From a virus, in the IMG/VR virus record IMGVR_UViG_3300045988_138661: 63,002 nucleotides of DNA. One strand, 5' to 3'. Both the position numbers and the translations under genes were made by a program. Positions 426-52,496 of this stretch are shown here, one piece after another; the stretch's first letter is position 1, and the number at the start of each line of letters is the position of its first letter. The notes under the pieces were generated by a model. The model saw nothing but the letters and a program-made list of their open reading frames with translations. It had not been told where the DNA came from and ran no database searches.

Positions 426-433
426 AAGAAAAT

Positions 434-1036: not shown

Positions 1037-1061
1037 CAAAAACCAGAAAGGAATTGATACT

Positions 1062-1436
1062 ATGGCTACTTCTACTACTAAGAAGCTCACTAAGCGTGAC
1101 CGTTTCGAGGCTCTGCTCAAAATGTCCGAGGTTCAGGCAAATCCTGATATGGTGGCGTTCATCGAGCATGAGATTGAACTGCTCGCCAAGAAGAACGCGG
1201 GCGACAAGAAGCCCACGGCTAAGCAGATGGAGAACGACGCCGTGAAGCAGGTCATTCTGGACGAGATGATCGCAAACCCTGACAAGCTCTACACTGTAAC
1301 CGAACTCATCAAAGGCGTTCCCGAACTTGCGGAGTATTCCAATCAGCGCGTTTCCGCTCTTCTGCGCCAGATGATTGACGCCAACGCGGTTGTCAAGACG
1401 GTTGACAAGCGCAAGTCCTACTTCTCCCTCGCGTGA
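1062..1436 (+). CDS. hypothetical protein, paralog family A (124 aa)
   Basis: ORF; RBS gaaaggaattgatactATG identical to that of 3411 CDS; ~75 percent identical to 3411..3790 product. Confidence 0.7.
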   Translation: MATSTTKKLTKRDRFEALLKMSEVQANPDMVAFIEHEIELLAKKNAGDKKPTAKQMENDAVKQVILDEMIANPDKLYTVTELIKGVPELAEYSNQRVSALLRQMIDANAVVKTVDKRKSYFSLA

Positions 1437-1480
1437 GGGCAAGGGCAGGGGATAAAAAAAATCCCCTGCCCTATAAAAAA

Positions 1481-1560
1481 ACTGTTGACAAACCAATAGC
1501 AAAGTGCTATACTATTATCAGAGGTTGAGAGAACGATGGTAAATCTCAATCTACTTTTCC
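1481..1560 (+). promoter_or_regulatory. promoter (ttgacaaacc..tgctatact) plus conserved 5-prime UTR stem-loop ggttgagagaacgatggtaaatctcaatc
   Basis: motif repeated at 4372-4400 ahead of another CDS; ttgaga/tctcaa inverted repeat. Confidence 0.45.
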
Positions 1561-1576
1561 AATAGGAGATGGTAAA

Positions 1577-2353
1577 ATGGGTATTGATAGGCGCAAAAAC
1601 TACGGCATTATGCTGGACACGGAAACCGCAAACACCATTCAAGACGGCGATAAGCTGGATATGTCAAATGTGCTTCCATACGACTTCGGCTGGGCGGTCA
1701 TTGATTCCAAGGGAAATGTTTATGAAACTCATTCTTTTGTGAATCGCGATATTTTCTGCTACGAGCGCGACCTCATGCAGTCTGCCTACTACGCCGACAA
1801 AATTCCCCGCTATGTCGAGGATATTAAGAACGGCACTCGCATTATGGCTGACCTTTACGAAATTCGTCTTGCATTCTGTGAATGTGTCGAGCGTTATAAC
1901 TGCTCTTTTGTCTGCGCTCATAATATGCGGTTCGACCTTAACGCCTGTAATAACGCGCAAAGATGGGATACGAAAAGCAAGTATCGCTATTTTTTCCCCT
2001 ACGGCCTTGAAGTTTGGGACACGCTGAAAATGGCGCGACAGGTTATTGGCAAAATGCCCACTTACCGCGACTATTGCGAAAAGAATGGCTACAAGACCAA
2101 AAACGGACAGCTCCGTTTTACAGCAGAAATTCTTTACCGCTTTATCAGCGGTGAAGATAGTTTTGATGAGTCCCACACGGGACTTGAAGATGTCCTCATT
2201 GAAGTTGAGATTTTGCGCTATTGCGTCCGACAGCACAAGAAAATGGAAAAGTCCCTTTTCAAAAATTCCACGGTGGAACGCCCTAAGCCTACCGAGTTTC
2301 AGCGCGCGCTCATGCGAAACATTAAGGAAAATCCTATGATAAACATGAGCTAA
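1577..2353 (+). CDS. DEDD-family 3-5 exonuclease (DnaQ/RNase T-like), 258 aa
   Basis: Exo I MLDTETAN, Exo II AHNMRFDLN, Exo III HTGLEDV motifs in order. Confidence 0.7.
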   Translation: MGIDRRKNYGIMLDTETANTIQDGDKLDMSNVLPYDFGWAVIDSKGNVYETHSFVNRDIFCYERDLMQSAYYADKIPRYVEDIKNGTRIMADLYEIRLAFCECVERYNCSFVCAHNMRFDLNACNNAQRWDTKSKYRYFFPYGLEVWDTLKMARQVIGKMPTYRDYCEKNGYKTKNGQLRFTAEILYRFISGEDSFDESHTGLEDVLIEVEILRYCVRQHKKMEKSLFKNSTVERPKPTEFQRALMRNIKENPMINMS

Positions 2354-2411
2354 AAAAATAGGGAATAGGGCTTGACAAGTCCTATTCCCTATGGTATAAT
2401 CAATACATCAA

Positions 2412-2708
2412 ATGAAAGAGGTGTTCCACATGACTGCTAAACAAGTCCTTTTTGTAGTCCCCGATGAAAATGACCCTCACATGGGCATTTTAATCAACCA
2501 TGACTATGTTATCTGCGCTGAATGCGGTGGCGTCTTTGAAGTCGATGAGGTTTTCATCATCAAGACCTATGACGTTTGGGTAAACTTTGAAGACGAAATT
2601 GCGGACGAGCTTGACCTGCTGACCGCAAAAGACATTGGCAAAGAGCTGAATAGCAAGGGAGAATCCGGTCGTTACGCATGGAAAGAAGCAATTAAGAGGG
2701 AGTTTTGA
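2412..2708 (+). CDS. hypothetical protein (98 aa)
   Basis: ORF after promoter cttgacaagtc..tggtataat and RBS gaaagaggtg. Confidence 0.6.
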   Translation: MKEVFHMTAKQVLFVVPDENDPHMGILINHDYVICAECGGVFEVDEVFIIKTYDVWVNFEDEIADELDLLTAKDIGKELNSKGESGRYAWKEAIKREF

Positions 2709-2746
2709 AAATGGATTTGGATTTCCACCTGCTGGAATAAATAAAA

Positions 2747-2777
2747 AACTGCCCAAAAATGGGCAGTTTTTTTTTGT
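2747..2777 (+). terminator. rho-independent terminator (ctgcccaaaaatgggcag + T9)
   Basis: inverted repeat plus T-run. Confidence 0.7.
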
Positions 2778-2860
2778 CTATTTTGCCTATTGACAAATGC
2801 GGATTTTTGTGATAAAATGGTCGGCCCGCTAACGCCCAAAGCGGGCCGAACTCACCATTA
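2772..2860 (+). promoter_or_regulatory. promoter plus GC hairpin, copy b (ggtcggcccgct...agcgggccgaac)
   Basis: same architecture and downstream conserved tcaccattatac...ttttgtcaagagaaa as copy a. Confidence 0.5.
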
Positions 2861-3410
2861 TACCACGCCCCGCCAATTTTGTCAAGAGAAAAGTTGCACA
2901 AAAATGAAAAAAATTTTTTCCCGTAATTTGGCTATTCTGTCAATTGTATTCTGTGGGCAATCTGCTATAATAGATAATGTCAGGAGGGAACAGTGAATTG
3001 CCGAACGGCTTCGCTGATGGGTGTGATAACTCGGTAACTGACCCGTTTTCAAAGAAATTTGAAATTCCCTCTTGACAAACCCCTGCGAGTGTGCTACAAT
3101 AGAAAATGTCAAGAGGGAGTAGCCCAAGAAATCCGAGGGCGCGCGACCTTGAGAAAGTACAGGAAGTAAACATAATACACCACGTTGTAAAGCCAAACGT
3201 TGAACGCGAAAGTGAGTGAGAGTGAGCCAGCTATACTTGAAGCGATTTTCGCTGACAGATAGACTGAGCCAACGGGCAATACCTTATCCGTCAGGTCGGG
3301 GTAGTAATTCGTGTAAAAAGTTTGCGAAACCTCTTGACAAACATTTCAAAGTGTGGTACACTTAATATATCAAAAGGGTAGCGACCTACCGCCAAAGAAA
3401 GGAATTGATA

Positions 3411-3790
3411 CTATGTCTACTTCTACTACTAAGAAGCTCACTAAGCGCGACCGTTTCGAGGCTCTGCTCAAGATGTCCGAGGTTCAGGCTGACCCCGCCA
3501 TGGTTGAGTTTATCAATCACGAGATTGACCTGCTGGCTCGCAAGAATGCCGGTGATAAGAAGCCGACCGCGAATCAGATTGCCAACGATGGTTACAAGGA
3601 CATTATCTTTGCCGAGCTGTCCGCCAATCCTGACAAGCTCTACACTGTGACCGAACTCATTAAGACTGTGGACGGTTTGGGTGACCTCTCCAATCAGCGC
3701 GTCTCCGCTCTTCTGCGTCAGATGATTGAAGCGAACGGTGTCGAGAAGATTGTCGACAAGCGCAAGTCCTATTTCCGTCTCGCCCACTGA
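3411..3790 (+). CDS. hypothetical protein, paralog family A (126 aa)
   Basis: start chosen at ATG after shared RBS gaaaggaattgatact, rather than the ORF-track start 3353. Confidence 0.7.
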
Positions 3791-3890
3791 TTCAGCGGGA
3801 GCGCCTAAAAAAAATTAGGCGCTCCCAAAAATTTCTCTTGACATTTGCTAACGGCGGTGTTATAATCATACTTGAAAGGGGGCAAAGAAA

Positions 3891-4298
3891 ATGCCTAAAA
3901 TGAGTGAAAAAGACTTTCAGGCAAAGATTGATAATCTGATGAAAAAGTTGGATTGTACTGCCGAGGAAGCAAAAGAAATTCTCATGGACGATGATGACAT
4001 TGACCATGGAATTGCCAAAGATTTTGACCTGTCCGCGGAAAAGCTCAAAGAAGCTAACAAGTACTCTAAGACTGGAACGCGCAAAGCGCCGACCGCTTAT
4101 AAGTTTGAGAAGCGACAGCGCAAGGAAAATCCCACAAAACGCTCGATTATCGCTGAACTTGCAACTTTTTTGCGTGAAAACAGCGAAAATGCGTGTGAAA
4201 ACGTGGAAATCACGAACATTGAACGCATGATTGCGTTCCATGTGGGCGAAAATGACTATGAATTGACCCTGATTCAGAAGCGAAAGCCCAAAAACTGA
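3891..4298 (+). CDS. hypothetical protein (135 aa)
   Basis: promoter tcttgacattt..tgttataat, RBS aagggggc, TGA stop, terminator follows. Confidence 0.6.
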   Translation: MPKMSEKDFQAKIDNLMKKLDCTAEEAKEILMDDDDIDHGIAKDFDLSAEKLKEANKYSKTGTRKAPTAYKFEKRQRKENPTKRSIIAELATFLRENSENACENVEITNIERMIAFHVGENDYELTLIQKRKPKN

Positions 4299-4311
4299 CA
4301 AAAAAGGGTGA

Positions 4312-4342
4312 AAAACCGCTGAAAAATGCGGTTTTTCACCCG
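4312..4342 (+). terminator. rho-independent terminator (aaaaaccgctgaaaaatgcggttttt)
   Basis: inverted repeat seen. Confidence 0.6.
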
Positions 4343-4415
4343 AAAACAAGTCAAAAAATGCAAAAAATAATGGTTGAGAGAACGATGGTAAACCTCAATC
4401 AATAGAGAGGATTTT

Positions 4416-4832
4416 GTGTCAATGGAAAAGATTACTATTAAACTACGCCGATTTAAGGACGGTAGACCGCCTGTTTCAATGGAGTTTATGCCCGATTGTG
4501 GCGAGAATCTGAAAGACGTTCAAGCGGTCTACTTTTTCAAGTTTTACAACAACAACAAACTTGAATTTAATAAAGTAGGCACTTCCGCAAAAGACGTTGT
4601 AGGGCGCTTGCGTGATGAAATCGGCGAGTATTCAAAAAAGTATCCTATCACGCGAGTTGAAATTCATCGAATCCGCTCTTGCGGAGACTACCCCGCCGAG
4701 GGCGCGGAAAGCGCGTTGCGTGCGGAACTGATTAGACGCTATCCCAAAGCGTTTAGAAAGAATGACCGCTTTTTTAATGTGGACATTAGCCCCACGGTGT
4801 TCGATGAAATCGTAAGCGCATTTCTTGCATAA
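4416..4832 (+). CDS. hypothetical protein (138 aa)
   Basis: preceded by the ggttgagagaacgatggtaaacctcaatc UTR motif; TAA stop; terminator follows. Confidence 0.6.
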   Translation: MSMEKITIKLRRFKDGRPPVSMEFMPDCGENLKDVQAVYFFKFYNNNKLEFNKVGTSAKDVVGRLRDEIGEYSKKYPITRVEIHRIRSCGDYPAEGAESALRAELIRRYPKAFRKNDRFFNVDISPTVFDEIVSAFLA

Positions 4833-4842
4833 ATATTCAATC

Positions 4843-4872
4843 AGCAGGTTGACTAAAACCTGCTGATTTTTT
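4843..4872 (+). terminator. rho-independent terminator (cagcaggtt...aacctgctg + T8)
   Basis: inverted repeat plus T-run. Confidence 0.7.
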
Positions 4873-4877
4873 TTGTG

Positions 4878-4960
4878 CATTTTGCCTATTGACAAGCGGG
4901 GAAAAGTGTGGTATAATTGGCCGGCCGTAAACTGACGCCACGGCCGGAATTTCGTATCAA
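4878..4960 (+). promoter_or_regulatory. promoter plus GC hairpin, copy c (ttggccggccgt...acggccggaa)
   Basis: ttgacaagc..tggtataat then inverted GC repeat. Confidence 0.5.
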
Positions 4961-5066
4961 TAGGCAAGTTCAACAATTTTTGAGCGAAATGTTTGTGCAT
5001 TTTGTCTATTGATTTTATCCCGAAAATGTAGTATCTTATAATTACAGAAAGGGAGAGTGATACAAA

Positions 5067-5192
5067 ATGCGGTGTGTTGAATGTCCGTACTACTACTGGA
5101 ATGACTACGTGGAGATGGAAATCTGCCATGCTGACCCCAACTGGCCCGCCCCTTGCGAATACGATGATGAACCAGAGGAGGAAGAAAAATGA
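5067..5192 (+). CDS. small Cys-rich acidic protein (41 aa)
   Basis: RBS aaagggagag; CxxC pairs; below ORF-track cutoff. Confidence 0.4.
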   Translation: MRCVECPYYYWNDYVEMEICHADPNWPAPCEYDDEPEEEEK

Positions 5193-5344
5193 AACATTAT
5201 CATTGCCCTGTAAATGGTTGGGATTGTCCTTACTACACAGACGACCCTCAGCCTTGTATGTGTACGCTGGAAGACCCATTCCACGATTGCGATGATTTCG
5301 CATCGATGTGGGATGAAGATGATGATTACACAGATTATGATTAA
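5189..5344 (+). CDS. small Cys-rich acidic protein (51 aa)
   Basis: ATG overlaps upstream TGA; RBS gaggagga; CP..C motifs. Confidence 0.4.
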   Translation: MKHYHCPVNGWDCPYYTDDPQPCMCTLEDPFHDCDDFASMWDEDDDYTDYD

Positions 5345-5349
5345 AATTT

Positions 5350-5390
5350 TCGGGCAGAAAAATCTGCCCGAATTTTTTTTTGTGTAAAAT
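5350..5390 (+). terminator. rho-independent terminator (cgggcagaaaaatctgcccg + T-run)
   Basis: inverted repeat plus T-run. Confidence 0.6.
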
Positions 5391-5393
5391 GCC

Positions 5394-5480
5394 TATTGAC
5401 AAAGCCTGCGGTTTGTGGTATAATAAAGGCGGGGCTGGCCGGGCCGGGGTGGGACGTCCCGGCCCGATTTCCCGATCGGT
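5394..5480 (+). promoter_or_regulatory. promoter plus GC hairpin, copy d (ggccgggccgg...ccggcccg)
   Basis: ttgacaaagc..tggtataat then GC inverted repeat. Confidence 0.45.
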
Positions 5481-5745
5481 ATACCCATATGCGAAATTTT
5501 TCATACTTCTAGCACCTCTCCATATGGCCCAAAAAAATCCCGAAAATTGACTTTTTATAAAAAATATGTTATAATGATAAAAAAAGACTTTTTTAAGCCC
5601 GCGTAGGATCATATGCCTTTATGATTAATTAAAAATTGCTTCGCCCTTACATTGTTTCACGCGTATGTTTTCATTCAAAAAAATCTTGACATTTTTAAAA
5701 AAAAAGTATATAATATATATAGAAAATAAGAAAAGAGGTATTCAT

Positions 5746-6123
5746 ATGGATATGAATGATATTGTTGCTCGTCTGAAAAATGGTGAGGACGCTCAGACTA
5801 TTGCGGACGAGATGGAAAATGCTCTGAATGATGCGATTAAGCAGGTGGAGAAGGAAACCAAGCAGGCCGATCGGAAGACCGCGCTCGCGCAAGAAATCGC
5901 CGATCGGATTAACGAGTATGCCGCTCTTAATGGCCACAAGGATTCCGCGTTGACCGCGTCCGATGTGGAGACTATCTTTGCTGAGGTTTACGGTCTTATG
6001 AACGGGGTCAACGATCTTATTGACGCGCTTTTCCCCAAGAGCACACAGGTAAAGGTTAAGAAGGTCAAGAAAACTGATGATGATGTAATTGCCGAGTTTT
6101 TGAACACTTTCATTAATAAGTGA
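5746..6123 (+). CDS. hypothetical protein (125 aa)
   Basis: first copy of AT-rich promoter-leader consensus upstream (5686-5745); start at ATG after RBS agaggt. Confidence 0.55.
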   Translation: MDMNDIVARLKNGEDAQTIADEMENALNDAIKQVEKETKQADRKTALAQEIADRINEYAALNGHKDSALTASDVETIFAEVYGLMNGVNDLIDALFPKSTQVKVKKVKKTDDDVIAEFLNTFINK

Positions 6124-6185
6124 ACAATGTGTCGGGTGAGATATTTTTCATCCTAAGAATTGACAATTTCACCAAGAATTGCCTA

Positions 6186-6226
6186 ATATGAAAGAAGAGA
6201 GACTAAAAAAAGTCTCTCTTTTTTTT
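6186..6226 (+). terminator. rho-independent terminator (agagagacttttttt agtctctctt + T-run)
   Basis: inverted repeat seen. Confidence 0.6.
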
Positions 6227-6467
6227 AGGTTCGGAGATCGGAGACGGGAAAAAGTGGTTGGTGGTTTAGTAAAACCGATCGGCACCACACTCTCGCAATT
6301 TTCGCTATTTTAGCAATTTCTACAATTATTCCACGTCGTCCGAATTATCCAAACCTTTAATTACTATCCAAAAGCGAATCAACCAATATAGGTCTATTAA
6401 CGGTCTCTTCCAGCGTTCCATAGGCAATATCCAACAGCCACACCAATTAAAAACCAAATAATACCAC

Positions 6468-6872
6468 TCATACAAGCAACTCCTCCAACTTTGTCTTAAA
6501 TACACTATCAAGAATGTCATCAGCAAGCGTTCTCTTACTGAGATCCACATCTTCTGATCCAGAAGCAACCCCATTAACGAGGGCGCTTGTGTCCGAAGTC
6601 GTCTGCGGCTGCTTCTCAAACGCGGGCTTCACATATCTATATTCATTCTCGATATATTCTATCTTACCTTGCTCAGTAATTCGACCAAGAACCTTACCAT
6701 TAAAAACCAACTTATTACAGTCATCCCAAATAAGATATGCGCCTTGCGTATTCTCCCTATTAAAAAACTCTTTCTTAGTAGTAGCAATTACATTCCAATT
6801 GCGGAAAACGCCTACCTTTTCTCCATTATTCTTTTTCAGTTCTTCAGTTGTAAATTTCATTTCAGTTTTCAA
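6468..6872 (-). CDS. hypothetical protein (134 aa), minus strand
   Basis: ORF with RBS aagga ~12 nt upstream on minus strand. Confidence 0.5.
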   Translation of the reverse strand: MKTEMKFTTEELKKNNGEKVGVFRNWNVIATTKKEFFNRENTQGAYLIWDDCNKLVFNGKVLGRITEQGKIEYIENEYRYVKPAFEKQPQTTSDTSALVNGVASGSEDVDLSKRTLADDILDSVFKTKLEELLV

Positions 6873-7016
6873 ATCCTTACTTTCATTTCATTTTTTGAAT
6901 AGTTCCCCGAGACAAATACCCCTGCTTTACGCAGAAATAACCTACCCCGGTATTCCATTTTAAAATTATATTTCTTTCTTTTATTATTTATATTATAATA
7001 TATTATTTATTATAAA

Positions 7017-7262
7017 TCAAATAAACTCCTAAAGAAATGGATTTTCTTCTATTGATTCAGGTCTATCCTCATATTTCATTTTAATTGGTTTTGTACTATC
7101 TGGAACAACAAAATAAATAGTATTATCTTTCATATATAAATCAGGTTTTATCATATTTGTTTTATCTATCATCTTATCAAACTATTCTTGCGTTCCTCTT
7201 ACAAATCTTACTATTGAAGGATTGCCTTTTCCGCCCCTTACTTCTTCATAATTATATTCCAT
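7017..7262 (-). CDS. hypothetical small protein, readable only if one in-frame TAG is sense
   Basis: strong RBS aaaggagt before ATG (complement 7262-7260); TAG in frame; ends TGA. Confidence 0.35.
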
Positions 7263-7349
7263 TACTTTTTACTCCTTTTGCTCTCATTACTGCCCCTGAA
7301 TTACCCAGCCGATATATATTAAATATTATCTATTATATATATATTAATA

Positions 7350-7600
7350 GGAACTTTTTGTTCCGAAAATATAGGCAATTCGGAACTAACGGTTCCAAAC
7401 ATAAGGGGCATTTTGGAACTAACGGTTCCGCAGTCCCTAATAATTCATCACGTTTTAAATGAATGGAACTAACGGTTCCGAATTTAATGTTAAAATTCAA
7501 ATTTGTCTTCTTTCGGAACTTTTTGTTCCACTTTACTATTATTAATTATCTATTTTTGAATAACAACCTATCCCTTCGGAACTTTTTGTTCCAGAAAATC
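7350..7600. repeat. cluster of about 7 GGAAC-N5/6-GTTCC palindromes (ggaactaacggttcc x3, ggaactttttgttcc x4)
   Basis: read directly in sequence; AT-rich non-coding context between divergent gene blocks. Confidence 0.7.
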
Positions 7601-7921
7601 ATTACAATTATCATAAAAATCATATTTTCCTTCCGCGGTTTCGACTAAATAGTTATTATTCTTTAAATCATTTATACCAGCATCAATAGCCTTGCGGACT
7701 GCCCTTGCTTCACTCGCCTTTGAATAATCTTTTCCTAACCAATTGGCATAAGCGGTCGGATTCATAGTCCAAACAAAATTATTAGTATTACCAGCTAAAT
7801 ATAAATATAATCTTAAACCATTCAATGTTAAACTCCCAGTAGCCTAACCCAACGTAGGAGTGTTTATTGAAGTAAAATTACCACTCTATAAAACTTCTTT
7901 ATGAATCTTAAATAGGCTCAT
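7568..7921 (-). CDS. hypothetical protein, about 117 aa with two in-frame TAG codons (ORF track shows only 7568..7825)
   Basis: ATG (complement 7921-7919) overlaps the TAA of the upstream minus-strand gene; in frame with the track ORF. Confidence 0.45.
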
Positions 7922-8097
7922 TATTTCTTGCCCATTAATTCATCCAGAGCCTAAACTAACTCCGGAGTCTTTTCATATATCCAACACATAAAGTTAGGCT
8001 TCCGCGGATTTGCGGTTGTTGTTATTGGATATATTCCTTTCTTTTCTAATTCTAAATATATTCTTAATGAATATATAATTTTATTGGCATTTGGCAT
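7921..8097 (-). CDS. hypothetical small protein (~58 aa) with one in-frame TAG
   Basis: RBS aaggagtcgctaatATG on minus strand. Confidence 0.35.
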
Positions 8098-8110
8098 ATT
8101 AGCGACTCCT

Positions 8111-8624
8111 TTAAGCAATTAAAATATTATTCTAAATATTTAAATGGAGCCAATCTTGATACTTTTTTATTATGTTCCGATTGAAAAATATAATCTAATG
8201 GAAGTTGAATTCCATCTTTAATCGGATAAGCATAAAATTCGAGACAATCTTTACGCTCTCTTAGGTATCCATGATGAACTAATAAGTCAAAATTAAATAC
8301 AATATCTTCTATATCTTTACAATACTAAATATCTGTATTTAAGATATCATTAAAATGAATATAATCTCCATCCTTTTTATTCATTACATAACACCATAAC
8401 TCAAAGTTAATATAATAAGCGAATGTGTATGTAAATAAATAAAGCGGAACTCCATTATATGCTTTATGTGAAGCCAAAGGCGGAATCTCTCTATTTATTT
8501 TAATAGGTTTAGTAAAATCTAATACTGCTCCTGTTTCATATAAATCATAATTATCAGGACTATTTTTTATAACTTGATAATGTTCCTTTTCAGCAATCTA
8601 TTCAATATCTTTAACCGCTCTCAT
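8111..8624 (-). CDS. hypothetical protein (~170 aa) with in-frame TAG codons
   Basis: manual translation of minus strand gives a continuous non-low-complexity protein once TAG is read through. Confidence 0.4.
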
Positions 8625-9081
8625 ACTACCTTTCTTATAATAGTATTTGTCGTGGAAAAAAGTTATCAATTCCTTTTTAGTCAATTTATAAGTCCTCCTC
8701 CTTTTCTTTTTAATTGTTCTATAATAAATAAAAATTTTTTTAATACTTTTAATTGCGTTTGCCCACAAATTTTTAAATATTTTTCTAAAAGTAATAATTT
8801 GTCTTACATTTTAATACAAAATGGTAAAAATTTTCTACAATTTTAACTAACGCGGTTTTCCCGTCTAATGTTCCTTCTATCCTAAGCATAGCGATCTCTA
8901 ATATCTACATAAGCGACTATGAAAAATTGCCTACAATTTTTACCTATTTTAATTACATTTAATATGTTTGCCCAAGCGCTTTTATTTTTTATTTAATTCA
9001 AAAAACATTTATTGATTTTTATTAAATTTTAATATATAATATAAATATAAAATAAAGAAAAACTATTAAAGGTGATAAAAA

Positions 9082-9279
9082 ATGCTAGCTAAACTTATTG
9101 ATAATCAAGGTCAAACTCATATCATCAATACGACCCATATTCATTCAATTTCCGTAAAGAATTCTGGGTCGGATAAACTTGTGATGGTTTTTTGGGACAA
9201 TGAAACAAAAACCGCGTATTATGTAAAACCCACTGAGTATAGCACTTTTATCAATTCTATTTTTAAGGAGGATAAGTAA
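9082..9279 (+). CDS. hypothetical protein (65 aa)
   Basis: RBS aaaggtga; first gene of a long plus-strand array. Confidence 0.55.
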   Translation: MLAKLIDNQGQTHIINTTHIHSISVKNSGSDKLVMVFWDNETKTAYYVKPTEYSTFINSIFKEDK

Positions 9280-9280
9280 T

Positions 9281-9619
9281 ATGTCTGTTGATTTTGGTTC
9301 TAAGCTCGTGTGTGGCTACAAAGTCTCTAAGAACCTTCTTGAGAACTATGATAATATGGCTGAGGCTATTGAACAGCTTACCGAAGAAGGTTATTGGCAT
9401 CGCGCAAGCTGCTATGATAACGACGAAAATCCTATCTTCGGCTATCTTCTCGGTAAGTCTTCCGCGGGCGAGGCCGTCCGCATCGACAACATCTTCATCG
9501 CTCCGCAGGAGTATTATCGCCTTAACGACACAATGAAGGAAGCTTACGCAAAGTTTCTCAAAATCCCCATCGAAAGCCTTGATGATCCCGAGATTTTTCT
9601 AATCTCTACAATTTCTTAA
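9281..9619 (+). CDS. hypothetical protein (112 aa); N-terminus SVDFG shared with 51192 CDS
   Basis: RBS aaggagga; coupled to upstream stop. Confidence 0.6.
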   Translation: MSVDFGSKLVCGYKVSKNLLENYDNMAEAIEQLTEEGYWHRASCYDNDENPIFGYLLGKSSAGEAVRIDNIFIAPQEYYRLNDTMKEAYAKFLKIPIESLDDPEIFLISTIS

Positions 9620-9635
9620 AGAAAGGAAAATAAAT

Positions 9636-9890
9636 ATGAAACAATGCCCTGTTTATTATGAAGCACGCTATTGGGACGATTCTGATAAAATGGATAGACT
9701 TACGTGCGGTTTTATCTTCGCGGAAACCCTCGCAGAAGCCGGCCGTTGGGCAGAAGAATATTTCGAAGATCTTATCACTATCGCATTTACCCCTCTTGAC
9801 GAGGGCCCTTTGCGCGTCAATCATGATCTTGCTAACAAGATTCTAAAATTTGACGGCGAAGATGCTCCATATTCTGCTAAAGTGCTATGA
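9636..9890 (+). CDS. hypothetical protein (84 aa)
   Basis: RBS aaaggaaaataaat; TGA stop overlapping next ATG. Confidence 0.55.
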   Translation: MKQCPVYYEARYWDDSDKMDRLTCGFIFAETLAEAGRWAEEYFEDLITIAFTPLDEGPLRVNHDLANKILKFDGEDAPYSAKVL

Positions 9891-10330
9891 TGACTTTCCT
9901 ATGTAAGAATTGCGCTTACCTTTTGTCTAATGGTGCTTGTCCAATAGCAGGATATTCACCCGACCCCAATCAACCCGTTTGTAATAGCTTTAGCGACACT
10001 AAGTATACTTGTAAAGTTTGTCATAACCCAATTTTCCATAAGCAAATGGTTATTGACGACAAAGGAAATACTTATTGCGATAAATGTTTCGCAAGACTTA
10101 GCACATGCGCTAATTGTGAACAAAATGTGAACTGCGCATTTAATGATTCTCCCGACACGCCGAAAATGGTCCAAAAGCGAGAAATCGTTGGAAATATGCA
10201 AGCCGTCACGAATGTCCGTAATCCCGACATTGTCGAAAAGACGTGTAAGAAAGGTTGTTCTTGTTTTAACGAAGAAAATGGCTGTATGAGAGATTTCAAT
10301 TGTTGCGATAAACTTAACCCTATTCTTTAA
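9887..10330 (+). CDS. Cys-rich protein (147 aa; many CxxC pairs)
   Basis: translation shows more than 20 Cys in zinc-ribbon-like spacing. Confidence 0.55.
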   Translation: MMTFLCKNCAYLLSNGACPIAGYSPDPNQPVCNSFSDTKYTCKVCHNPIFHKQMVIDDKGNTYCDKCFARLSTCANCEQNVNCAFNDSPDTPKMVQKREIVGNMQAVTNVRNPDIVEKTCKKGCSCFNEENGCMRDFNCCDKLNPIL

Positions 10331-10344
10331 AGGAGTTTTTAAAT

Positions 10345-10944
10345 ATGTTTATCTTCTTCTTGAAAACGCTGATGGGCGGATTTGTTCTACCGGCCTTAAT
10401 TATTTTTCTAATTTTCGCCATTCATTCTGCTTATCGTAGTTATAGGTATTATAGCACTCTTTCCGATCCTAAGGCCAAGCATTTCCGCAATTGGTCTCAT
10501 CGCGACCGCGTTGATATTCTCCGTCAAATTATTCCTGCCTTTTGGATCGGCGTTTGTCTTTACCTCGCGGTAGGCATGTTTGGCGGAGTTATGATGTCTT
10601 CGGCTGTTGATGACTATTCTAAGTATGATTATACGATTACGGAAGCCCAAGAGCTAACAAGTATAGATAACGATGGCAATATCTATACTTACCGTGCCTT
10701 TGAAGGTGAGACTGTTTATTACACTTATCTTACACTCAGCACTGATGGCATTATGAGCACTGAGACCCATCCCGTGAATGACACAGTAATTGTTTACTCT
10801 AATCAGGTTCCGCACATTGAAAAGCGTCTCCCACGTTATGGCGATTGGAGAGAGTGGTTCTTTGTCTGCTCTAAGTCAACGCGAGCTTACCTTTATATTC
10901 CAGAAGGAACAGATATAGCGAAAGATTATATTGTGGAGAAATAA
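10345..10944 (+). CDS. membrane protein (199 aa; two hydrophobic helices)
   Basis: N-terminal hydrophobic stretches FVLPALIIFLIFAI and AFWIGVCLYLAVGMFGGVMM. Confidence 0.55.
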   Translation: MFIFFLKTLMGGFVLPALIIFLIFAIHSAYRSYRYYSTLSDPKAKHFRNWSHRDRVDILRQIIPAFWIGVCLYLAVGMFGGVMMSSAVDDYSKYDYTITEAQELTSIDNDGNIYTYRAFEGETVYYTYLTLSTDGIMSTETHPVNDTVIVYSNQVPHIEKRLPRYGDWREWFFVCSKSTRAYLYIPEGTDIAKDYIVEK

Positions 10945-10945
10945 A

Positions 10946-11215
10946 ATGAACAAAGGTGATTTAATTTATTTAAAAATGTCTAACGGCGACAGTGTTTTCT
11001 TCAACGTAAATGAAATCGTTGCGGTTCTTGTTTCTCATATTGCCAAGGATAATTCAGATGATGACAGTATTTCTACTGAAACTTTTGAAACAAAACTTGA
11101 CTTTTATATGAATGATAAATCTCATTATGAATATGTCTTTGATGATAGGTATTCTAATGGTACCGCAATTCTAAAACAACTTAAAAATTTTGTTTCTGAG
11201 GAGGCATTCAAATGA
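10946..11215 (+). CDS. hypothetical protein (~89 aa)
   Basis: start moved to ATG after RBS ggag (track start 10931). Confidence 0.5.
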   Translation: MNKGDLIYLKMSNGDSVFFNVNEIVAVLVSHIAKDNSDDDSISTETFETKLDFYMNDKSHYEYVFDDRYSNGTAILKQLKNFVSEEAFK

Positions 11216-11457
11216 TTGTAATTTTACACAACTTCCGCGGTTCTAAGTATCTTATTAATACTAACAATATTAACGCCGTCGAAATTCGACCCGTGAATTC
11301 TGAAACTTATGCAAAAGAAATCGCGGAAGCAGGCGGTGGTCCGCTCTCGTTTATTTACATTGATTGGCAATTCAATGCTTCAACAAGCATTCTCGTATCT
11401 TCTGAAACTGCCGAAGAGTTTCTCAATCTTTTTGAAGGCGCGATTGAAATCTTTTAA
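11212..11457 (+). CDS. hypothetical protein (81 aa)
   Basis: ATGA overlap with upstream stop, RBS gaggaggc. Confidence 0.55.
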   Translation: MIVILHNFRGSKYLINTNNINAVEIRPVNSETYAKEIAEAGGGPLSFIYIDWQFNASTSILVSSETAEEFLNLFEGAIEIF

Positions 11458-11515
11458 TTTCTAAATATATTATAACAAAAATTTTGGGTAAAATCAATTA
11501 ATGGAGGAATAATAT

Positions 11516-11731
11516 ATGAAGCATATGCCTGTCTTATTCATTTATGACGCGTTCTGTGATGAGATTTACTGCGCCACAAATATAAGTGGATCTGACGCTC
11601 TCGAAATCGCTATGTCCGCGATCGAAGAGAATGTTGAGAAACGATTCCATTGTCGTAAATTTGATACAAGACTTTACAAAGATGCATTGGAAGATATGAT
11701 TATTTATTATAATTATGCTCCCGTTCTCTAA
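11516..11731 (+). CDS. hypothetical protein (71 aa)
   Basis: RBS aatggaggaa; hairpin terminator-like aaaggatttgcgcaaaccgcaaatcctttttt after it. Confidence 0.55.
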   Translation: MKHMPVLFIYDAFCDEIYCATNISGSDALEIAMSAIEENVEKRFHCRKFDTRLYKDALEDMIIYYNYAPVL

Positions 11732-11767
11732 TTTTTAAAAGGATTTGCGCAAACCGCAAATCCTTTT

Positions 11768-11829
11768 TTGATTTTTTATAAAAAATAATATATAATATAT
11801 ATATAAAGTAAAGAAAGGAAATAAAAATT
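11768..11829 (+). promoter_or_regulatory. AT-rich promoter/leader consensus (ttgatttttTATAAAAAATAATATATAATATATATATAAAGTAAAGAAAGGAA)
   Basis: one of ~18 near-identical copies. Confidence 0.55.
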
Positions 11830-12150
11830 ATGACTACTTCTAATTCTAAGATTAAAACTCATTCCATTGGCATTCTTTGTGATACGGCGGGAGACCATAA
11901 TTTCTATTTCTTGAATGCATCTGAGGCCGATATGCAGGAAATGTTTATGGAGTATTGTCGAGATATGGTCGATGATAGTCTTATGGAGCATCAGTTCGAG
12001 GTAATTCAGAAAGACTCTGATAATGATTGGTATCTTTATCACGGCGAGATGACTGGTGATTGGACGAAGAGATTCTCTTCTTATCTCGATATGATGAATA
12101 ACGTCGCCGATGATGTTTTTATTGATTTCGTTGATGCGATTGAAATGTAA
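11830..12150 (+). CDS. acidic hypothetical protein (106 aa)
   Basis: ATG placed ~10 nt after consensus aagga leader. Confidence 0.6.
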   Translation: MTTSNSKIKTHSIGILCDTAGDHNFYFLNASEADMQEMFMEYCRDMVDDSLMEHQFEVIQKDSDNDWYLYHGEMTGDWTKRFSSYLDMMNNVADDVFIDFVDAIEM

Positions 12151-12161
12151 GGAGAATAATT

Positions 12162-12443
12162 ATGAAAGAAATTACTTGTTATAAAATTGAAGATGGAGTG
12201 ATTGGTAAGTCTTGGACCTTCGCCAATATTTCTGAAGCAGAAATACAAGAGTTATATCTCGCTTTCATTGAAGGCGCAATCGAAGAAGATATTATGGAAA
12301 CTCAGCGAATCGAATACTTCGATCTCCCTCTTCCTAAGCCCGATTGGTGGCGAGTAGAAGAGGATTATCAGAAAGAAGTTGATAGACTTCGTCTTATGGA
12401 TAGCGAGTTCTATATGCATAAATTTAATGCTTATACGTTTTAA
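12162..12443 (+). CDS. hypothetical protein (93 aa)
   Basis: RBS aaggagaa. Confidence 0.55.
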   Translation: MKEITCYKIEDGVIGKSWTFANISEAEIQELYLAFIEGAIEEDIMETQRIEYFDLPLPKPDWWRVEEDYQKEVDRLRLMDSEFYMHKFNAYTF

Positions 12444-12454
12444 GGAGAATATAA

Positions 12455-13189
12455 ATGATTCCTGGACTTTATGAAATCTTTAATACGCGCTGGGGTGGTC
12501 AGACGGTCTGGGTATCCTCTGATTGGCATTTTGGCGATTCAGATTTGCGGATTGGCCACCCCAACCGCATTTCTGATGACGATCTTGTAAAACTTTTAAA
12601 TAGCAAAGCAGGTCGGAAAGACACACTCATTTGTCTCGGTGATGTAGGTGATATCTCTTATGTGCGGAAACTGCGCGCCGGTTATAAGGTTCTCATCAAG
12701 GGCAACCACGATGCTGGCTCTGAAAACTATAAGCGCAAAATTGTCAAGAAGAGATTCTCTATGAATCACTATCGAAAGGACGAAGCGCTTATGGAAATGA
12801 AGCGTCTTTATCCTGATTGTAAGTATTTTATTGATTCGGGATTTAATTTCTGCACTCCCTTTGAATATTGGGAGATTACCGCGGATAATGGTCTTTTCGA
12901 CGAAGTATATGATGGCGTGCTCCTTATTGGTGAGAAACTTATGCTTTCTCACGAACCAATTAAGCAGGACTGGGCTCTCGATCTTCACGGCCATGACCAC
13001 AATCATAAAGAGACGGACATCTATCACAAGAATGTTTGTATAGATGTGTTTGGCCCCGCCCCTTTAAACTTAAATCAGTTCATGAAAAATGGCCCGACTG
13101 CGAAGATCGAGAGCGTCCATAGAAAGACGATTGATACCGCGACCAAGAGAAAGCAGAAGCGAGGAGGTAAAAAGATATGGGAGAAATGA
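12455..13189 (+). CDS. calcineurin-like metallophosphoesterase / Ser-Thr phosphatase family (244 aa)
   Basis: motifs SDWHFG (GDxHG), GDVGD (GDxxDRG-like), GNHD (GNHE-like), HGH in canonical order. Confidence 0.65.
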   Translation: MIPGLYEIFNTRWGGQTVWVSSDWHFGDSDLRIGHPNRISDDDLVKLLNSKAGRKDTLICLGDVGDISYVRKLRAGYKVLIKGNHDAGSENYKRKIVKKRFSMNHYRKDEALMEMKRLYPDCKYFIDSGFNFCTPFEYWEITADNGLFDEVYDGVLLIGEKLMLSHEPIKQDWALDLHGHDHNHKETDIYHKNVCIDVFGPAPLNLNQFMKNGPTAKIESVHRKTIDTATKRKQKRGGKKIWEK

Positions 13190-13346
13190 TTATTATGCTA
13201 TTTATCATATTAGTATTTTTCGGCTTTATGTATATGGATCTACTGAATGATGATACTATGCCTCTCAATGAGAAGTATTATTATTGCGGTATGGGCATGT
13301 TGCTTTGCCTGTTTGCCGGTTTTATTCAGTCAGTCTTTTATGTTTA
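13176..13346 (+). CDS. small membrane protein (~56 aa)
   Basis: below ORF-track cutoff; two hydrophobic segments. Confidence 0.35.
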
Positions 13347-13423
13347 AAATAATAATTCTTTGTTTTTGCGCTCTTGGCATTTTATCCGTTTTGTTCGATG
13401 ACTTAGATTAAGGAGAAGGATAT

Positions 13424-13630
13424 ATGGTAGGATTTATTATAGAAATTATTCTTGGATTAATTGTAATAAGGCTTGCCCTATATATCTTCAACCTTACCGA
13501 CTGCGCTGACCCTTTTGAAGATATGTTTCTGATTGATACTTGTCTCATTACCGGAACCCTTCTACTTGTAATCTCTGCACTCCCAATCATTTTAGGATTG
13601 TATGGAGTAATTCAATATTTTATTCATTAA
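13424..13630 (+). CDS. small membrane protein (68 aa)
   Basis: RBS aaggagaagg; highly hydrophobic. Confidence 0.5.
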   Translation: MVGFIIEIILGLIVIRLALYIFNLTDCADPFEDMFLIDTCLITGTLLLVISALPIILGLYGVIQYFIH

Positions 13631-13643
13631 GGAGAAGATAGTT

Positions 13644-14048: not shown

Positions 14049-14059
14049 GGAGAATAAAA

Positions 14060-52190: not shown

Positions 52191-52262
52191 TGAGGGGTAG
52201 CATAGCGGCAAATGCGCTGGTCTCTAAAACCAGATAAGTGGGATCGACACCCACCCCCTCCG
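52191..52262 (+). tRNA. suppressor tRNA, anticodon CUA (reads UAG); Gln-like features
   Basis: acceptor tgagggg/cccctcc (1-72 mismatch), U8 A9, D-arm gcat-agcggcaa-atgc, anticodon arm ctggt-ctCTAaa-accag, 4-nt variable loop, T-arm gtggg-atcgaca-cccac, G73; no encoded CCA. Confidence 0.65.
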
Positions 52263-52496
52263 CGGTGCTAAAAACAAAACCTCCTCGTGGTAGCACTGGG
52301 TAATGCTAATTTGTTTATAAAGGTAATAAAGGCAATATGTATAAAAGTCATTGATAAGTCCTTTTATACGATAGGAAGTAGGATTAGAAGCGTCCATCTT
52401 TTAAAGAGCGAAATGCGGCGATCGGGTATTTCCTTGGTCCAGTAGACACACTATCGGAGGTTGTGGGTTAACCTAATTAAAACCCTCAAAATAAAA

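What the first reader, a model, noticed from the sequence alone, without database searches (positions are those of the whole stretch)
7350..7600. Cluster of seven GGAAC-N5/6-GTTCC palindromes in the AT-rich switch region
Three copies of ggaactaacggttcc and four of ggaactttttgttcc lie within 250 bp between the early plus-strand module and the minus-strand genes, flanked by very AT-rich DNA. This is the expected look of an iteron/operator cluster for a dimeric DNA-binding protein (replication origin, partition site or master repressor operator). One copy overlaps the 3-prime end of the 7568 CDS.
Basis: seen in the sequence. Interest (0 to 1): 0.6.

Follow-up and report, generated by a model that had tools for sequence, protein, structure and literature searches.

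The report
Phage replication-origin-like iteron array
Six copies of a 15-bp palindrome form a conserved array of protein-binding sites that starts inside the gene of a lambda-O-like DNA-binding protein and ends at a very AT-rich tract, so this is most likely the replication origin (and self-regulation site) of a large, uncultivated gut phage that reads the TAG stop codon as glutamine.

Summary
The repeats are real, but there are six, not seven: 3x GGAACTTTTTGTTCC and 3x GGAACTAACGGTTCC at 7350-7592. Chance expects 0.05, and there are no others in the 63 kb.

They do not lie in the divergent switch region, which is about 8800-9080. They lie inside a minus-strand operon of a TAG-recoded phage of about 190 kb. 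With TAG read as Gln, two sites fall within the last 34 codons of a 143-aa winged-helix protein (gp143, 7921->7490).

The same layout is kept in seven diverged lineages:
- 1-4 sites in the gene's 3' end, always in the frame xxG GAA CAA AAA GTT CCx;
- 3-5 more sites downstream;
- a last site that always abuts TATTAATATATATA.

gp143's fold is closest to replication-initiator winged helices. Its remote homologues hit Pfam HTH_36 and the PHROGs 'replication initiation O-like'. Those homologues carry their own arm-AAAAN-arm palindrome arrays plus an AT tract inside their genes, starting at codons 103-112, as lambda O does with ori-lambda (codon 117).

Best reading (about 0.6): a lambda-type origin that also serves as an autoregulatory operator. 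Main rival (about 0.27): a purely transcriptional array at a promoter that lacks a -35 element. This is a new member of a known kind, of moderate interest.

The parts
7350..7364 (-). Site 1, the last site in the direction of the operon (minus strand reads GGAACAAAAAGTTCC). It directly abuts the AT-rich tract.
   Evidence: In every relative this terminal site is followed by TATTAATA(TA)n.
7382..7396 (-). Site 2 (GGAACCGTTAGTTCC on the minus strand).
   Evidence: The 32-33 bp spacing to site 1 is conserved in the window, L001, L004 and L005 lineages. The same CGTTA-spacer site is kept in L004.
7415..7429 (-). Site 3 (CGTTA spacer).
   Evidence: It forms a 33-bp tandem unit with site 2.
7465..7479 (-). 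Site 4 (CGTTA spacer), the first site after the gp143 stop codon.
7515..7529 (-). Site 5, inside gp143 (codons 131-136, V-EQKVP).
7578..7592 (-). Site 6, inside gp143 (codons 110-115, L-EQKVP). It starts 7 codons after the winged-helix domain ends. It carries one mismatch in the commonest close variant (L006/L007).
7311..7349 (.). AT-rich tract (minus strand: TATTAATATATATATAATAGATAATATTTAATATATAT). It is a candidate DNA-unwinding element. It also holds a -10-like TATAAT at 7337->7332 with no -35; site 1 is centred where the -35 would be.
   Evidence: It is the least stable 40-mer in 5.5-10 kb and in the 99.94th percentile of the window. The motif after the last site is conserved in all lineages. 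AT tracts also follow the arrays in L010, L020 and lambda.
7490..7921 (-). gp143: a winged-helix protein (residues 1-103) plus a low-confidence tail encoded by the array. It has four in-frame TAG codons (12, 26, 118, 123). Its start overlaps the stop of the upstream gene (TAATG). It is the candidate site-binding protein or initiator.
7921..8097 (-). gp58/65: a small conserved operon protein with a weak DUF5659 resemblance.
   Evidence: E 0.071; conserved in five lineages. A clear DUF5659 gene sits in the equivalent cassette of L020 (E 5e-6).
8127..8684 (-). gp185: the first operon gene (true start TTG at 8684). Its C-terminal part is a paralogous winged helix.
   Evidence: hhalign against the gp143 family profile gives probability 91.7%, E 7.8e-7. 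The family is found only in this phage group, on contigs up to 186-196 kb.
7017..7262 (-). Small downstream ORF (81 aa, two TAG). It is dispensable: it is deleted in relative L001, which keeps the array and the AT tract.
52191..52263 (+). Amber-suppressor tRNA (anticodon CUA), needed to read the operon's in-frame TAG codons. Included as context.

Best explanation
The six palindromes are iterons. Each is a binding site for a dimer of the winged-helix protein gp143, whose gene they overlap, possibly helped by its paralogue gp185. Together with the adjoining 39-bp AT tract they form a lambda-type replication origin of this TAG-recoded phage of about 190 kb.

Proposed mechanism (inferred):
- gp143 dimers load onto the 15-bp sites, whose two GGAAC arms lie one helical turn apart around an A-tract spacer.
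- The multi-site nucleoprotein complex stresses and opens the abutting (TA)n tract.
- The phage replisome is then recruited, perhaps helped or primed by transcription from the -35-less promoter-like element in the same tract.
- The same protein also binds a single site between the promoter and the ribosome-binding site of its own operon in most relatives, which would give autoregulation.

Shown here: the sites exist, are non-random, are conserved at the DNA level and are tied to the gene. The protein is a winged helix of the HTH_36 / lambda-O-like initiator superfamily. This layout is a trait of the whole family and matches ori-lambda.

Inferred: binding itself, DNA opening and origin firing.
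For: 1. Non-random and unique. There are 6 exact sites against 0.05 expected. No others occur in the 63 kb or in five 16.5-20.5 kb relative loci outside the operon.

2. DNA-level selection. All 13 in-gene sites of 7 lineages read xxG GAA CAA AAA GTT CCx. The preceding residue varies (L, V, W, M, S) but its third base is always G, although G in third position has a frequency of 0.14. Peptide selection alone would keep the arms with probability about 0.05 per site. The same motif also occurs in intergenic DNA and in inverted orientation.

3. Conserved architecture in seven lineages whose proteins are only 35-60% identical. The array starts just after the winged-helix coding part, continues downstream, and its last site abuts TATTAATATATATA.

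5. Family. Of 149 remote homologues, 64 hit Pfam HTH_36, 13 DnaD_N, 4 Rep3_N and 2 Phage_rep_O. P0051 and P0052 (E about 1e-11 to the gp143 profile) and further family members found with the wider profile hit mainly PHROGs annotated 'replication initiation protein', 'replication initiation O-like' or 'DnaD-like helicase loader', and none annotated as a transcription regulator.

6. A family-wide in-gene origin layout.
- P0208 (L010) carries 6x CTCCCC-AAAAY-GGGGAG from codon 103, then an ATAGATA-rich tract.
- P0052 (L020) carries 5x TGTGTAC-AAAAA-GTACACA from about codon 104, then TATAATACA x3.
- Lambda O carries 4x TCCCTC-AAAAC-GAGGGA from codon 117, then a 38-bp AT tract (PMC3349717).
- gp143's first site is at codon 110.

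7. Literature. HTH_36 marks the N-terminal domain of lambda O (PMC5509034) and small-plasmid Rep proteins (PMC6209633). The origins of SPP1, TP901-1 and Tuc2009 lie within the initiator gene (PMC6316719, PMC8965321).

8. The AT tract is the least stable duplex locally.

9. The array and tract are retained in L001 although the downstream gene is deleted.
Against: - gp143 itself has no direct Pfam or PHROG hit. The link to O-like initiators is transitive, and a direct hhalign to lambda O is not significant (E 0.09).
- gp143 lacks any C-terminal helicase-recruiting domain.
- No helicase, loader, primase or polymerase gene was found next to the operon or among the window ORFs scanned.
- The AT tract looks like a promoter. 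A TATAAT or TATAAG lies at a fixed 12 nt after the last site in five of seven lineages, followed in relatives by a hairpin with covarying stems, a ribosome-binding site and small genes. In L008 the unit of two sites plus tract lies upstream of the operon, apart from the 3'-end sites.
- Other promoter tracts nearby are almost as unstable.
- Site spacing (21-63 bp) is wider and less regular than in lambda, and helical phasing is only weakly supported.
- L020 has two HTH_36 paralogues, each with its own array. That fits a regulatory cascade at least as well as two origins.
- There are no DnaA boxes.
- GC skew gives no independent signal.
- No experimental data exist.
Confidence: 0.6

Rival explanations
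1. The array is purely transcriptional. In this reading gp143 (or gp185) is a phage regulator. The promoter-proximal site replaces the missing -35 of a promoter with a good -10 (TATAAT at 7337->7332, minus strand), and the protein either activates it (PhoB, MotA or Mor style) or represses it. The five upstream sites give cooperativity or looping. The single site at the operon's own 5' end gives autorepression. No replication role is involved.
For: - The last site is centred 20 bp upstream of a TATAAT, exactly where a -35 hexamer would sit, and no -35 is present. The same geometry, 22-25 bp, is seen in L020 and L010.
- In relatives the tract is followed 30-45 nt later by a hairpin with covarying stems and a constant loop, then a ribosome-binding site and small genes. 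This looks like a 5' UTR.
- In L008 the unit of site plus tract sits upstream of the operon.
- Five of seven lineages have one site between the promoter-like motifs and the ribosome-binding site of the first operon gene.
- Remote homologues also hit MarR and TrmB models.
- L020 has two paralogues, each with its own array.
Against: - No precedent was found for a regulator whose operator array begins inside its own gene right after the DNA-binding domain, in three deeply diverged lineages with different site sequences. That is the lambda O / SPP1 / TP901-1 origin pattern (PMC6316719, PMC8965321).
- The PHROG hits of the longer relatives are mainly replication-initiator families, and none is annotated as a transcription regulator.
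- There is only one target locus in 63 kb, and the gene it would control is dispensable (deleted in L001 with the array retained).
- In L015/L018 the -10 is poor (TAGATA).
- In L020 TATAATACA is repeated three times, which looks more like repeated unwinding-element motifs than one promoter.
Confidence: 0.27
2. The array is another kind of single-copy cis element bound by a winged-helix adaptor. It could be a centromere-like partition or positioning site (ParR/parC or TubR/tubC style), or a terminase recognition (pac/cos) site near a terminal-repeat boundary.
For: - There are multiple phased-looking sites at one locus per genome, next to an autoregulated small DNA-binding protein.
- Foldseek's best winged-helix hit in the PDB is TubR, though weak (probability 0.25).
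- Relative contig L001 (180 kb) ends 350 bp beyond the array.
- The neighbouring region 1-5600 looks like an early or terminal-repeat-type module.
- ORF 5665-6123 has a weak PHROG hit to a small terminase subunit (E 7.6e-5).
Against: - There is no ParA, ParM or TubZ-like NTPase and no terminase gene in or next to the operon in any lineage.
- Other long contigs run straight through the locus (L008, L015, L018).
- The phage looks lytic and needs no partition system.
- The family annotation points to replication initiators.
Confidence: 0.08
3. The array is not a DNA element at all. It is a by-product of a peptide repeat (EQKVPK) in the protein tail, a set of small RNA hairpins or terminators, or a chance repeat.
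For: Two sites encode EQKVP, and the peptide is kept in homologues. The terminator scan flags three of the palindromes as weak hairpins.
Against: - Four of the six sites are non-coding.
- The base before the GAA codon is always G, whatever the residue.
- Sites also occur inverted and upstream of the operon.
- The stems are only 5 bp.
- The tail has low AF2 confidence and is absent in the L008, L015 and L018 proteins, which stop right after the first site.
- Chance expectation is 0.05.
Confidence: 0.02

Closest known systems
Bacteriophage lambda O protein and ori-lambda (four iterons plus an AT-rich tract inside gene O)
   Same: Both have an N-terminal winged helix of the HTH_36/Phage_rep_O type. 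The iterons are themselves palindromes of the form arm / A-rich 5-nt spacer / arm: lambda TCCCTC-AAAAC-GAGGGA, here GGAAC-AAAAA-GTTCC. The array starts right after the DNA-binding domain (codon 117 in O, codon 110 here). It is followed by an AT-rich tract of about 38-39 bp. The iteron DNA is translated into a flexible part of the initiator (PMC3349717, PMC5509034).
   Different: gp143 ends inside the array and has no C-terminal (P-binding) domain. There are six sites with wide, irregular spacing (32-63 bp) against four at 20-24 bp. There are two spacer classes. No P-like loader gene follows. The operon holds a second winged-helix paralogue and a DUF5659-like protein. Direct sequence similarity to O is not significant. 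The gene carries four in-frame TAG codons.
Replisome organisers of Firmicutes phages with an in-gene origin (SPP1 G38P/oriL; TP901-1 ORF13; Tuc2009 Rep2009)
   Same: The origin-binding protein binds repeats located within its own gene, next to an AT-rich unwinding element (PMC6316719 section 3.5; PMC8965321 introduction). The host promoters suggest a Firmicutes-type host. Relatives hit the PHROG 'DnaD-like helicase loader' and replication-initiation families.
   Different: In those phages the repeats are direct repeats, and the proteins have a C-terminal domain with a helicase loader and helicase encoded next door. None of these is seen here.
T4 ori(uvsY)/ori(34)-type origins and activator-dependent -35-less phage promoters (MotA box at -30). 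Recalled from general knowledge, not tested here.
   Same: An activator site replaces the -35 of a promoter with a good -10, and an easily unwound tract lies immediately downstream. A large lytic phage is involved in both.
   Different: MotA binds a non-palindromic box as a monomer together with AsiA, and there are many MotA promoters per genome. Here there is one locus with 5-9 palindromic sites.
Iteron plasmids (P1 RepA incC/incA, F RepE, R6K Pi, pPS10 RepA)
   Different: Those Rep proteins have two winged-helix domains and bind direct repeats of 19-22 bp as monomers, using inverted half-repeats only as operators. gp143 has one winged helix, and all its sites are palindromes.

Membership tests
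lambda O / ori-lambda-type in-gene origin (PHROG 'replication initiation O-like', Pfam HTH_36 / Phage_rep_O) | The initiator has an N-terminal winged-helix DNA-binding domain of this superfamily. | tested here: met
lambda O / ori-lambda-type in-gene origin | Direct, significant sequence similarity to lambda O itself. | tested here: inconclusive
   hhalign of the family profile against lambda O aligns the right region (O residues 27-104) but gives only E 0.09.
lambda O / ori-lambda-type in-gene origin | Four or more dyad-symmetric iterons that begin in the gene just after the DNA-binding domain. | tested here: met
   There are six sites, the first at codon 110, against codon 117 in lambda O. 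The same holds in 7 lineages and in L010 and L020 with different arms.
lambda O / ori-lambda-type in-gene origin | An AT-rich, easily melted tract adjoins the last iteron. | tested here: met
   The 40-mer 7311-7350 is the least stable in 5.5-10 kb and in the 99.94th percentile of the window. The tract is conserved.
lambda O / ori-lambda-type in-gene origin | The initiator has a C-terminal domain that recruits the helicase loader, and a loader or helicase gene is adjacent. | tested here: not met
   gp143 stops within the array and its tail is of low confidence. gp185 and gp65 have no loader or helicase hits. The window ORFs scanned show no replication genes apart from a weak DNA-polymerase-exonuclease hit for 1577-2353.
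lambda O / ori-lambda-type in-gene origin | Replication actually starts there and depends on the protein. | not testable with these tools
   This needs marker-frequency analysis, 2D gels, or a plasmid replication or titration assay.
Iteron-plasmid Rep (Rep_3: RepA, RepE, Pi) | Two tandem winged-helix domains, with monomers binding direct repeats of 19-22 bp. | tested here: not met
   The model has a single winged helix. All sites are 15-bp palindromes. Only 4 of 149 relatives touch Rep3_N.
Activator-dependent -35-less phage promoter (MotA, PhoB, Mor type) | The binding site is centred on the -35 position of a promoter with a good -10 and no -35. | tested here: met
   The centre of site 1 is 20 bp upstream of TATAAT (7337->7332, minus strand), and the -35 position reads CAAAAA. 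The geometry is kept in most lineages, but the -10 is poor in L015/L018.
Activator-dependent -35-less phage promoter | A regulon of several such promoters in the genome, and a mapped transcription start. | tested here: not met
   There is no other site in the 63 kb or in five 16.5-20.5 kb relative loci. The transcription start cannot be tested here.
Partition centromere (ParR/parC, TubR/tubC) | A partner NTPase (ParA, ParM or TubZ) is encoded in the same cassette. | tested here: not met
   No operon protein in any lineage has a relevant Pfam hit. The TubR fold hit is weak.
Terminase recognition site (pac/cos) | The site is adjacent to terminase genes or lies at a physical genome end. | tested here: inconclusive
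   No terminase gene adjoins the operon. There is only a weak small-terminase-subunit PHROG hit for 5665-6123, and one contig ends 350 bp away. The genome ends cannot be mapped here.

The most novel reading that the evidence does not exclude
Origin firing, or the local regulatory switch, may be gated by the phage's change of genetic code. In this lineage the initiator-like gene carries four in-frame TAG codons in 143 (two of them before the DNA-binding domain is complete). Full-length gp143 could then be made only once the phage's own amber-suppressor tRNA (52191-52263) is active. Before that, only a 12-residue peptide, or perhaps an N-terminally truncated 85-aa form (TTG at 7825 to TAG at 7568), could be produced. 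At the same time the array is dual-coded: the iterons are overprinted as the protein's C-terminal tail.
Probability: 0.12. Interest if true: 0.7.

Novelty: new member of a known kind. Interest (0 to 1): 0.42.

Why it matters
It gives a concrete, testable candidate origin and origin-binding protein for a widespread group of uncultivated TAG-recoded gut phages of about 190 kb. GC skew does not reveal an origin in these genomes; here it simply follows transcription. It also shows that the lambda-O design recurs in very distant phage lineages, each with its own arm sequence. That design is a winged helix, then palindromic iterons with A-tract spacers embedded in the gene, then an AT tract. The recurrence offers a simple sequence rule for finding origins in metagenomic phage genomes. 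The in-frame amber codons in the initiator-like gene bear on the open question of what stop-codon recoding regulates. If the rival reading is right instead, the locus is a compact example of a highly cooperative promoter switch controlled by a single protein.

Tried and rejected
- DNA and protein scans of IMG/VR, and of the GenBank phage collection, for the array or for gp143 found nothing. Relatives came only from ENA and Logan assemblies.
- Rfam found nothing beyond tRNAs, both at gathering threshold and at E<=0.1 on 1-9200.
- The single palindromes as RNA hairpins or terminators (flagged): rejected. The stems are only 5 bp, the sites occur in both orientations, and they are conserved inside coding DNA.
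- GGAAC as an ECF-sigma -35, and CGTTAG (in the TAACG-type sites) as an SPO1 late -35: no matching -10 at the right distance on reading. Dropped.
- The peptide-repeat explanation: rejected by codon analysis.
- GC skew as an origin marker: the cumulative minimum at about 9-10 kb simply marks the switch in gene orientation.
- DnaA boxes: none near the array.
- Helical phasing of the sites: only weak support (Rayleigh p 0.002-0.016 on non-independent lineages). Not used.
- The first AF2 run with 8 sequences was poor (pLDDT 61). It was redone with 149 sequences.
- Foldseek against the PDB was uninformative.
- The afdb50 library was unavailable.
- Sequence search of the PDB with the family profile found nothing significant.
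- gp185's N-terminus gave only a marginal HU-like hit (E 0.31), which was not pursued.
- Integrative-element homologues (L013, L021) showed no clear array.

Full report
**Observation**

The region holds exactly six perfect GGAAC-N5-GTTCC palindromes. They start at 7350, 7382, 7415, 7465, 7515 and 7578. Three have the spacer TTTTT and three have TAACG on the plus strand. Shuffles expect 0.05 matches. No further copy appears with up to two mismatches or with other spacer lengths in 7200-7750. With one mismatch, only three scattered hits occur elsewhere in the 63 kb.

**Genome context**

Long ORFs appear in the right half of the window only if TAG is read through. A tRNA with anticodon CUA lies at 52191-52263 within a cluster of 18 tRNAs. 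At one in-frame TAG of the gene studied here, homologues without TAG have CAA, encoding Gln. The window therefore comes from a TAG-to-Gln recoded phage. Relatives sit on contigs of 164-196 kb. One AAA ATPase is about 42% identical to Herelleviridae proteins.

Positions 1-5600 carry many near-consensus sigma-70 promoters on the plus strand. Genes from 9082 onward are also on the plus strand. Between them lies a small island on the minus strand:
- gp185 (8684->8127);
- a protein of about 58 aa (8097->7921);
- gp143 (7921->7490, start coupled to the preceding stop as TAATG, four in-frame TAG);
- the array;
- an 81-aa ORF (7262->7017);
- a further gene with its own promoter.

The real divergent 'switch' region is about 8800-9080. 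The palindromes lie within the operon, and two of them lie inside gp143 (codons 110-115 and 131-136).

**Conservation**

gp143 has homologues at 48-97% identity. I fetched their DNA for seven lineages: the window with L006/7, L001-3, L004, L005, L008/9, L015-17 and L018/19. Every lineage has the same plan:
- 1-4 sites in the last codons of the winged-helix gene;
- 3-5 more sites downstream;
- a last site directly followed by TATTAATA(TA)n. In L008 this terminal unit (two sites plus the tract) lies upstream of the operon, and three sites remain at the 3' end of the gene.

Five of the seven lineages also have a single site between promoter-like motifs and the ribosome-binding site of the first operon gene. 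The window lineage has only a degenerate remnant there. No site occurs anywhere else in the 16.5-20.5 kb loci. The arms are invariant, while the spacers (AAAAA, CGTTA, AAATT, CAAAA, AGAAA, or inverted TTTTT) and the inter-site DNA vary.

All 13 in-gene sites are in the frame xxG GAA CAA AAA GTT CCx. The residue before E varies (L, V, W, M, S), yet its third base is always G, although G in third position has a frequency of only 0.14 in this genome. The constraint is therefore on the DNA. The EQKVP peptide is a by-product, which fits the low AF2 confidence of the tail and its absence from the L008, L015 and L018 proteins, which stop right after the first site.

**The protein**

gp143 has no direct Pfam or PHROG hit. 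A profile search found 249 relatives. With 149 of them as the alignment, AF2 gives a confident winged helix (pLDDT 89.8; residues 1-103) followed by a floppy tail.

- Foldseek against the PDB was uninformative, with TubR as a weak hit.
- BFVD returns phage HTH proteins and a 'RepA-like replication initiator'.
- Of the 149 relatives, 64 hit Pfam HTH_36, 23 TrmB, 18 MarR_2, 13 DnaD_N, 4 Rep3_N and 2 Phage_rep_O.
- The longer relatives hit mainly PHROGs annotated 'replication initiation protein', 'replication initiation O-like' or 'DnaD-like helicase loader', and none annotated as a transcription regulator. These are P0051 and P0052 (E about 1e-11 to the gp143 profile), P0208, P0214, P0250 and P0177 (found with the wider profile), and the second L020 paralogue (a neighbouring gene with its own HTH_36 hit).
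- The literature uses HTH_36 for the N-terminal domain of lambda O (PMC5509034), for Rep proteins of small plasmids (PMC6209633) and for proteins of Stx-phage replication regions (PMC8951638).
- gp185's C-terminal half is a paralogous winged helix (hhalign probability 91.7%, E 7.8e-7).
- The small middle protein resembles DUF5659 weakly. A clear DUF5659 gene sits in the same cassette, with two HTH_36 paralogues, in the 25-kb phage L020.

**The decisive comparison**

The remote relatives in small phages carry their own arrays inside their own genes, at the same place.
- P0208 (L010) has six CTCCCC-AAAAY-GGGGAG sites, 22-23 bp apart, from codon 103. They are followed by an ATAGATA-rich tract and then a C-terminal domain.
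- P0052 (L020) has five TGTGTAC-AAAAA-GTACACA sites from about codon 104, followed by TATAATACA x3.
- The second L020 paralogue has its own 15-bp repeats plus an AT-rich palindrome.
- Lambda O, read from NC_001416, has four iterons TCCCTC-AAAAC-GAGGGA from codon 117, followed by a 38-bp AT-rich tract (PMC3349717).

The site design (arm, A-rich 5-nt spacer, inverted arm), its position right after the winged-helix coding part, and the AT tract are all shared. Only the arm sequence changes with the protein, as expected for an initiator and its iterons evolving together. SPP1 G38P/oriL, TP901-1 ORF13 and Tuc2009 Rep2009 are further experimentally supported cases of an origin inside the initiator gene (PMC6316719, PMC8965321). 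In the window, the 40-mer abutting the last site (7311-7350) is the least stable duplex in 5.5-10 kb and sits in the 99.94th percentile of the window.

**Best explanation (confidence about 0.6)**

This is a lambda-type origin. gp143 dimers, perhaps with gp185, assemble on the six iterons and open the adjoining (TA)n tract. The same protein autoregulates the operon through the upstream site in most lineages.

- Shown: the sites, their DNA-level conservation, their tie to the gene, the fold and superfamily of the protein, and the family-wide layout.
- Inferred: binding, unwinding and origin firing.

**Weaknesses and the main rival**

- gp143 has no C-terminal recruiting domain.
- No helicase, loader or primase gene is nearby.
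- The link to O is transitive; direct hhalign gives E 0.09.
- The AT tract also looks like a promoter. A TATAAT or TATAAG lies 12 nt after the last site in five of seven lineages, so the site is centred on the missing -35. In relatives it is followed by a hairpin with covarying stems and a constant loop, a ribosome-binding site and small genes.
- In L008 this unit is separated from the 3'-end sites.

A purely transcriptional reading (about 0.27) therefore remains open. The two readings are not exclusive, because promoters that double as origins are known (T4 and T7, from general knowledge).

Against the purely transcriptional reading:
- I know of no precedent for operator arrays placed inside the regulator's own gene at this position.
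- There is a single target locus.
- The array is retained where the downstream gene is deleted (L001).
- The family annotations point to replication.

A partition or packaging site (about 0.08) lacks partner genes. Peptide-repeat, hairpin or chance explanations (about 0.02) are refuted.

**Novelty and interest**

The kind of element is classical: an initiator gene with embedded iterons and an AT tract. This is a new, uncharacterised member in an uncultivated recoded phage group. Its particular features are an initiator truncated to the winged helix, a tail overprinted on the iterons, two spacer classes, a winged-helix paralogue and a DUF5659-like partner, and four amber codons in the gene.

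The amber codons raise a more novel possibility: that full-length protein, and hence origin firing or switching, depends on the phage's suppressor tRNA. However, TAG use in this operon is lineage-specific; the L005, L008 and L018 genes have none. I rate that possibility at about 0.12. Overall interest is moderate (0.42).

Noticed in passing
window 1-5600: GC content is 42-46% here against about 30% elsewhere. There are two diverged repeat units of about 2.3 kb (1045-1432 and 3396-3783, 80-83% identical). At least eight near-consensus sigma-70 promoters (TTGACA-17-TGnTATAAT) lie on the plus strand, with few convincing ORFs; 4632-5612 looks non-coding. This could be an early host-takeover or terminal-repeat-like module, possibly encoding small RNAs. 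Rfam finds nothing.
   Followed up: partly
window 42416-52926: A cluster of 18 tRNA genes includes the amber suppressor (anticodon CUA, 52191-52263, which ARAGORN labels Pyl). One odd tRNA call at 42416-42486 has a two-base anticodon.
   Followed up: partly
window 9082-24500 versus 7017-8684 and beyond 24600: In-frame TAG codons are absent from the plus-strand ORFs of at least 150 aa between 9.1 and 24.5 kb. They are present in every gene of the small minus-strand operon (2, 1, 4 and 2 TAG) and in many genes after 24.6 kb, up to 9 per gene. Within one genome, code usage is therefore modular.
   Followed up: partly
window 8740-8975 (minus strand); also L004, L005, L015, L018: The motif TGGGCAAAC-N10-GTA(A)TTAAAA occurs twice upstream of the operon (starting at 8973 and 8764) and nowhere else in the window. 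A related form is conserved upstream of the operon in relatives. An inverted repeat at 8812-8844 / 8923-8955 lies between the two copies. It could be a non-sigma-70 promoter or a second operator system.
   Followed up: partly
L008 8820-8868; L015 11203-11245; L018 11213-11255: A hairpin about 30-45 nt after the AT tract has completely different (covarying) stems of 15-18 bp in L008 compared with L015/L018, but the loop tcgcttcgctc is identical. L004 and L005 have other strong hairpins at the same place. The window lineage has none.
   Followed up: partly
L001 10740-10901: The 180-kb relative contig ends 350 bp beyond the array inside a tandem repeat of about 62 nt (aataataccccgtaggcagggaggatcgtagatccgagtcgcctgcctgcgtggcgaacgca). 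It may be an assembly break at a repeat or a terminal-repeat boundary.
   Followed up: no
window 29142-29486 and 44439-44596: A 33-nt tandem repeat with 10.5 copies lies inside ORF 28833-29555 and encodes S/N/Y-rich peptide repeats. A 41-nt repeat with 3.8 copies (95% matches) lies between tRNA genes.
   Followed up: no
window 29587-38906: This block has very low GC (20-28%). Its large ORFs carry CxxxCxxC motifs of the radical-SAM type (29587-31086, 31086-32489, 33328-35424) and many TAG codons. It may be a modification or biosynthesis cluster.
   Followed up: no
window 39602-42336: Two adjacent Gly-rich paralogous ORFs (471 and 452 aa, with GGGGGG runs) carry 7 and 6 in-frame TAG codons respectively. 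They are probably structural or fibre proteins.
   Followed up: no
window 7568-7825 (minus strand): Under the standard code, an 85-aa ORF with a plausible ribosome-binding site (GGGAG, then 7 nt, then TTG) would yield an N-terminally truncated winged helix that ends at the TAG just after the first in-gene site. This short form could be made before amber suppression sets in.
   Followed up: no
L010-L012: The phages of 24-39 kb (L010-L012) that carry the remote homologue P0208 with an in-gene array also encode a 925-aa protein hitting Pfam RdRP (PF05183), as two-barrel YonO-like RNA polymerases do (from general knowledge), and a YomX_C-like protein.
   Followed up: no
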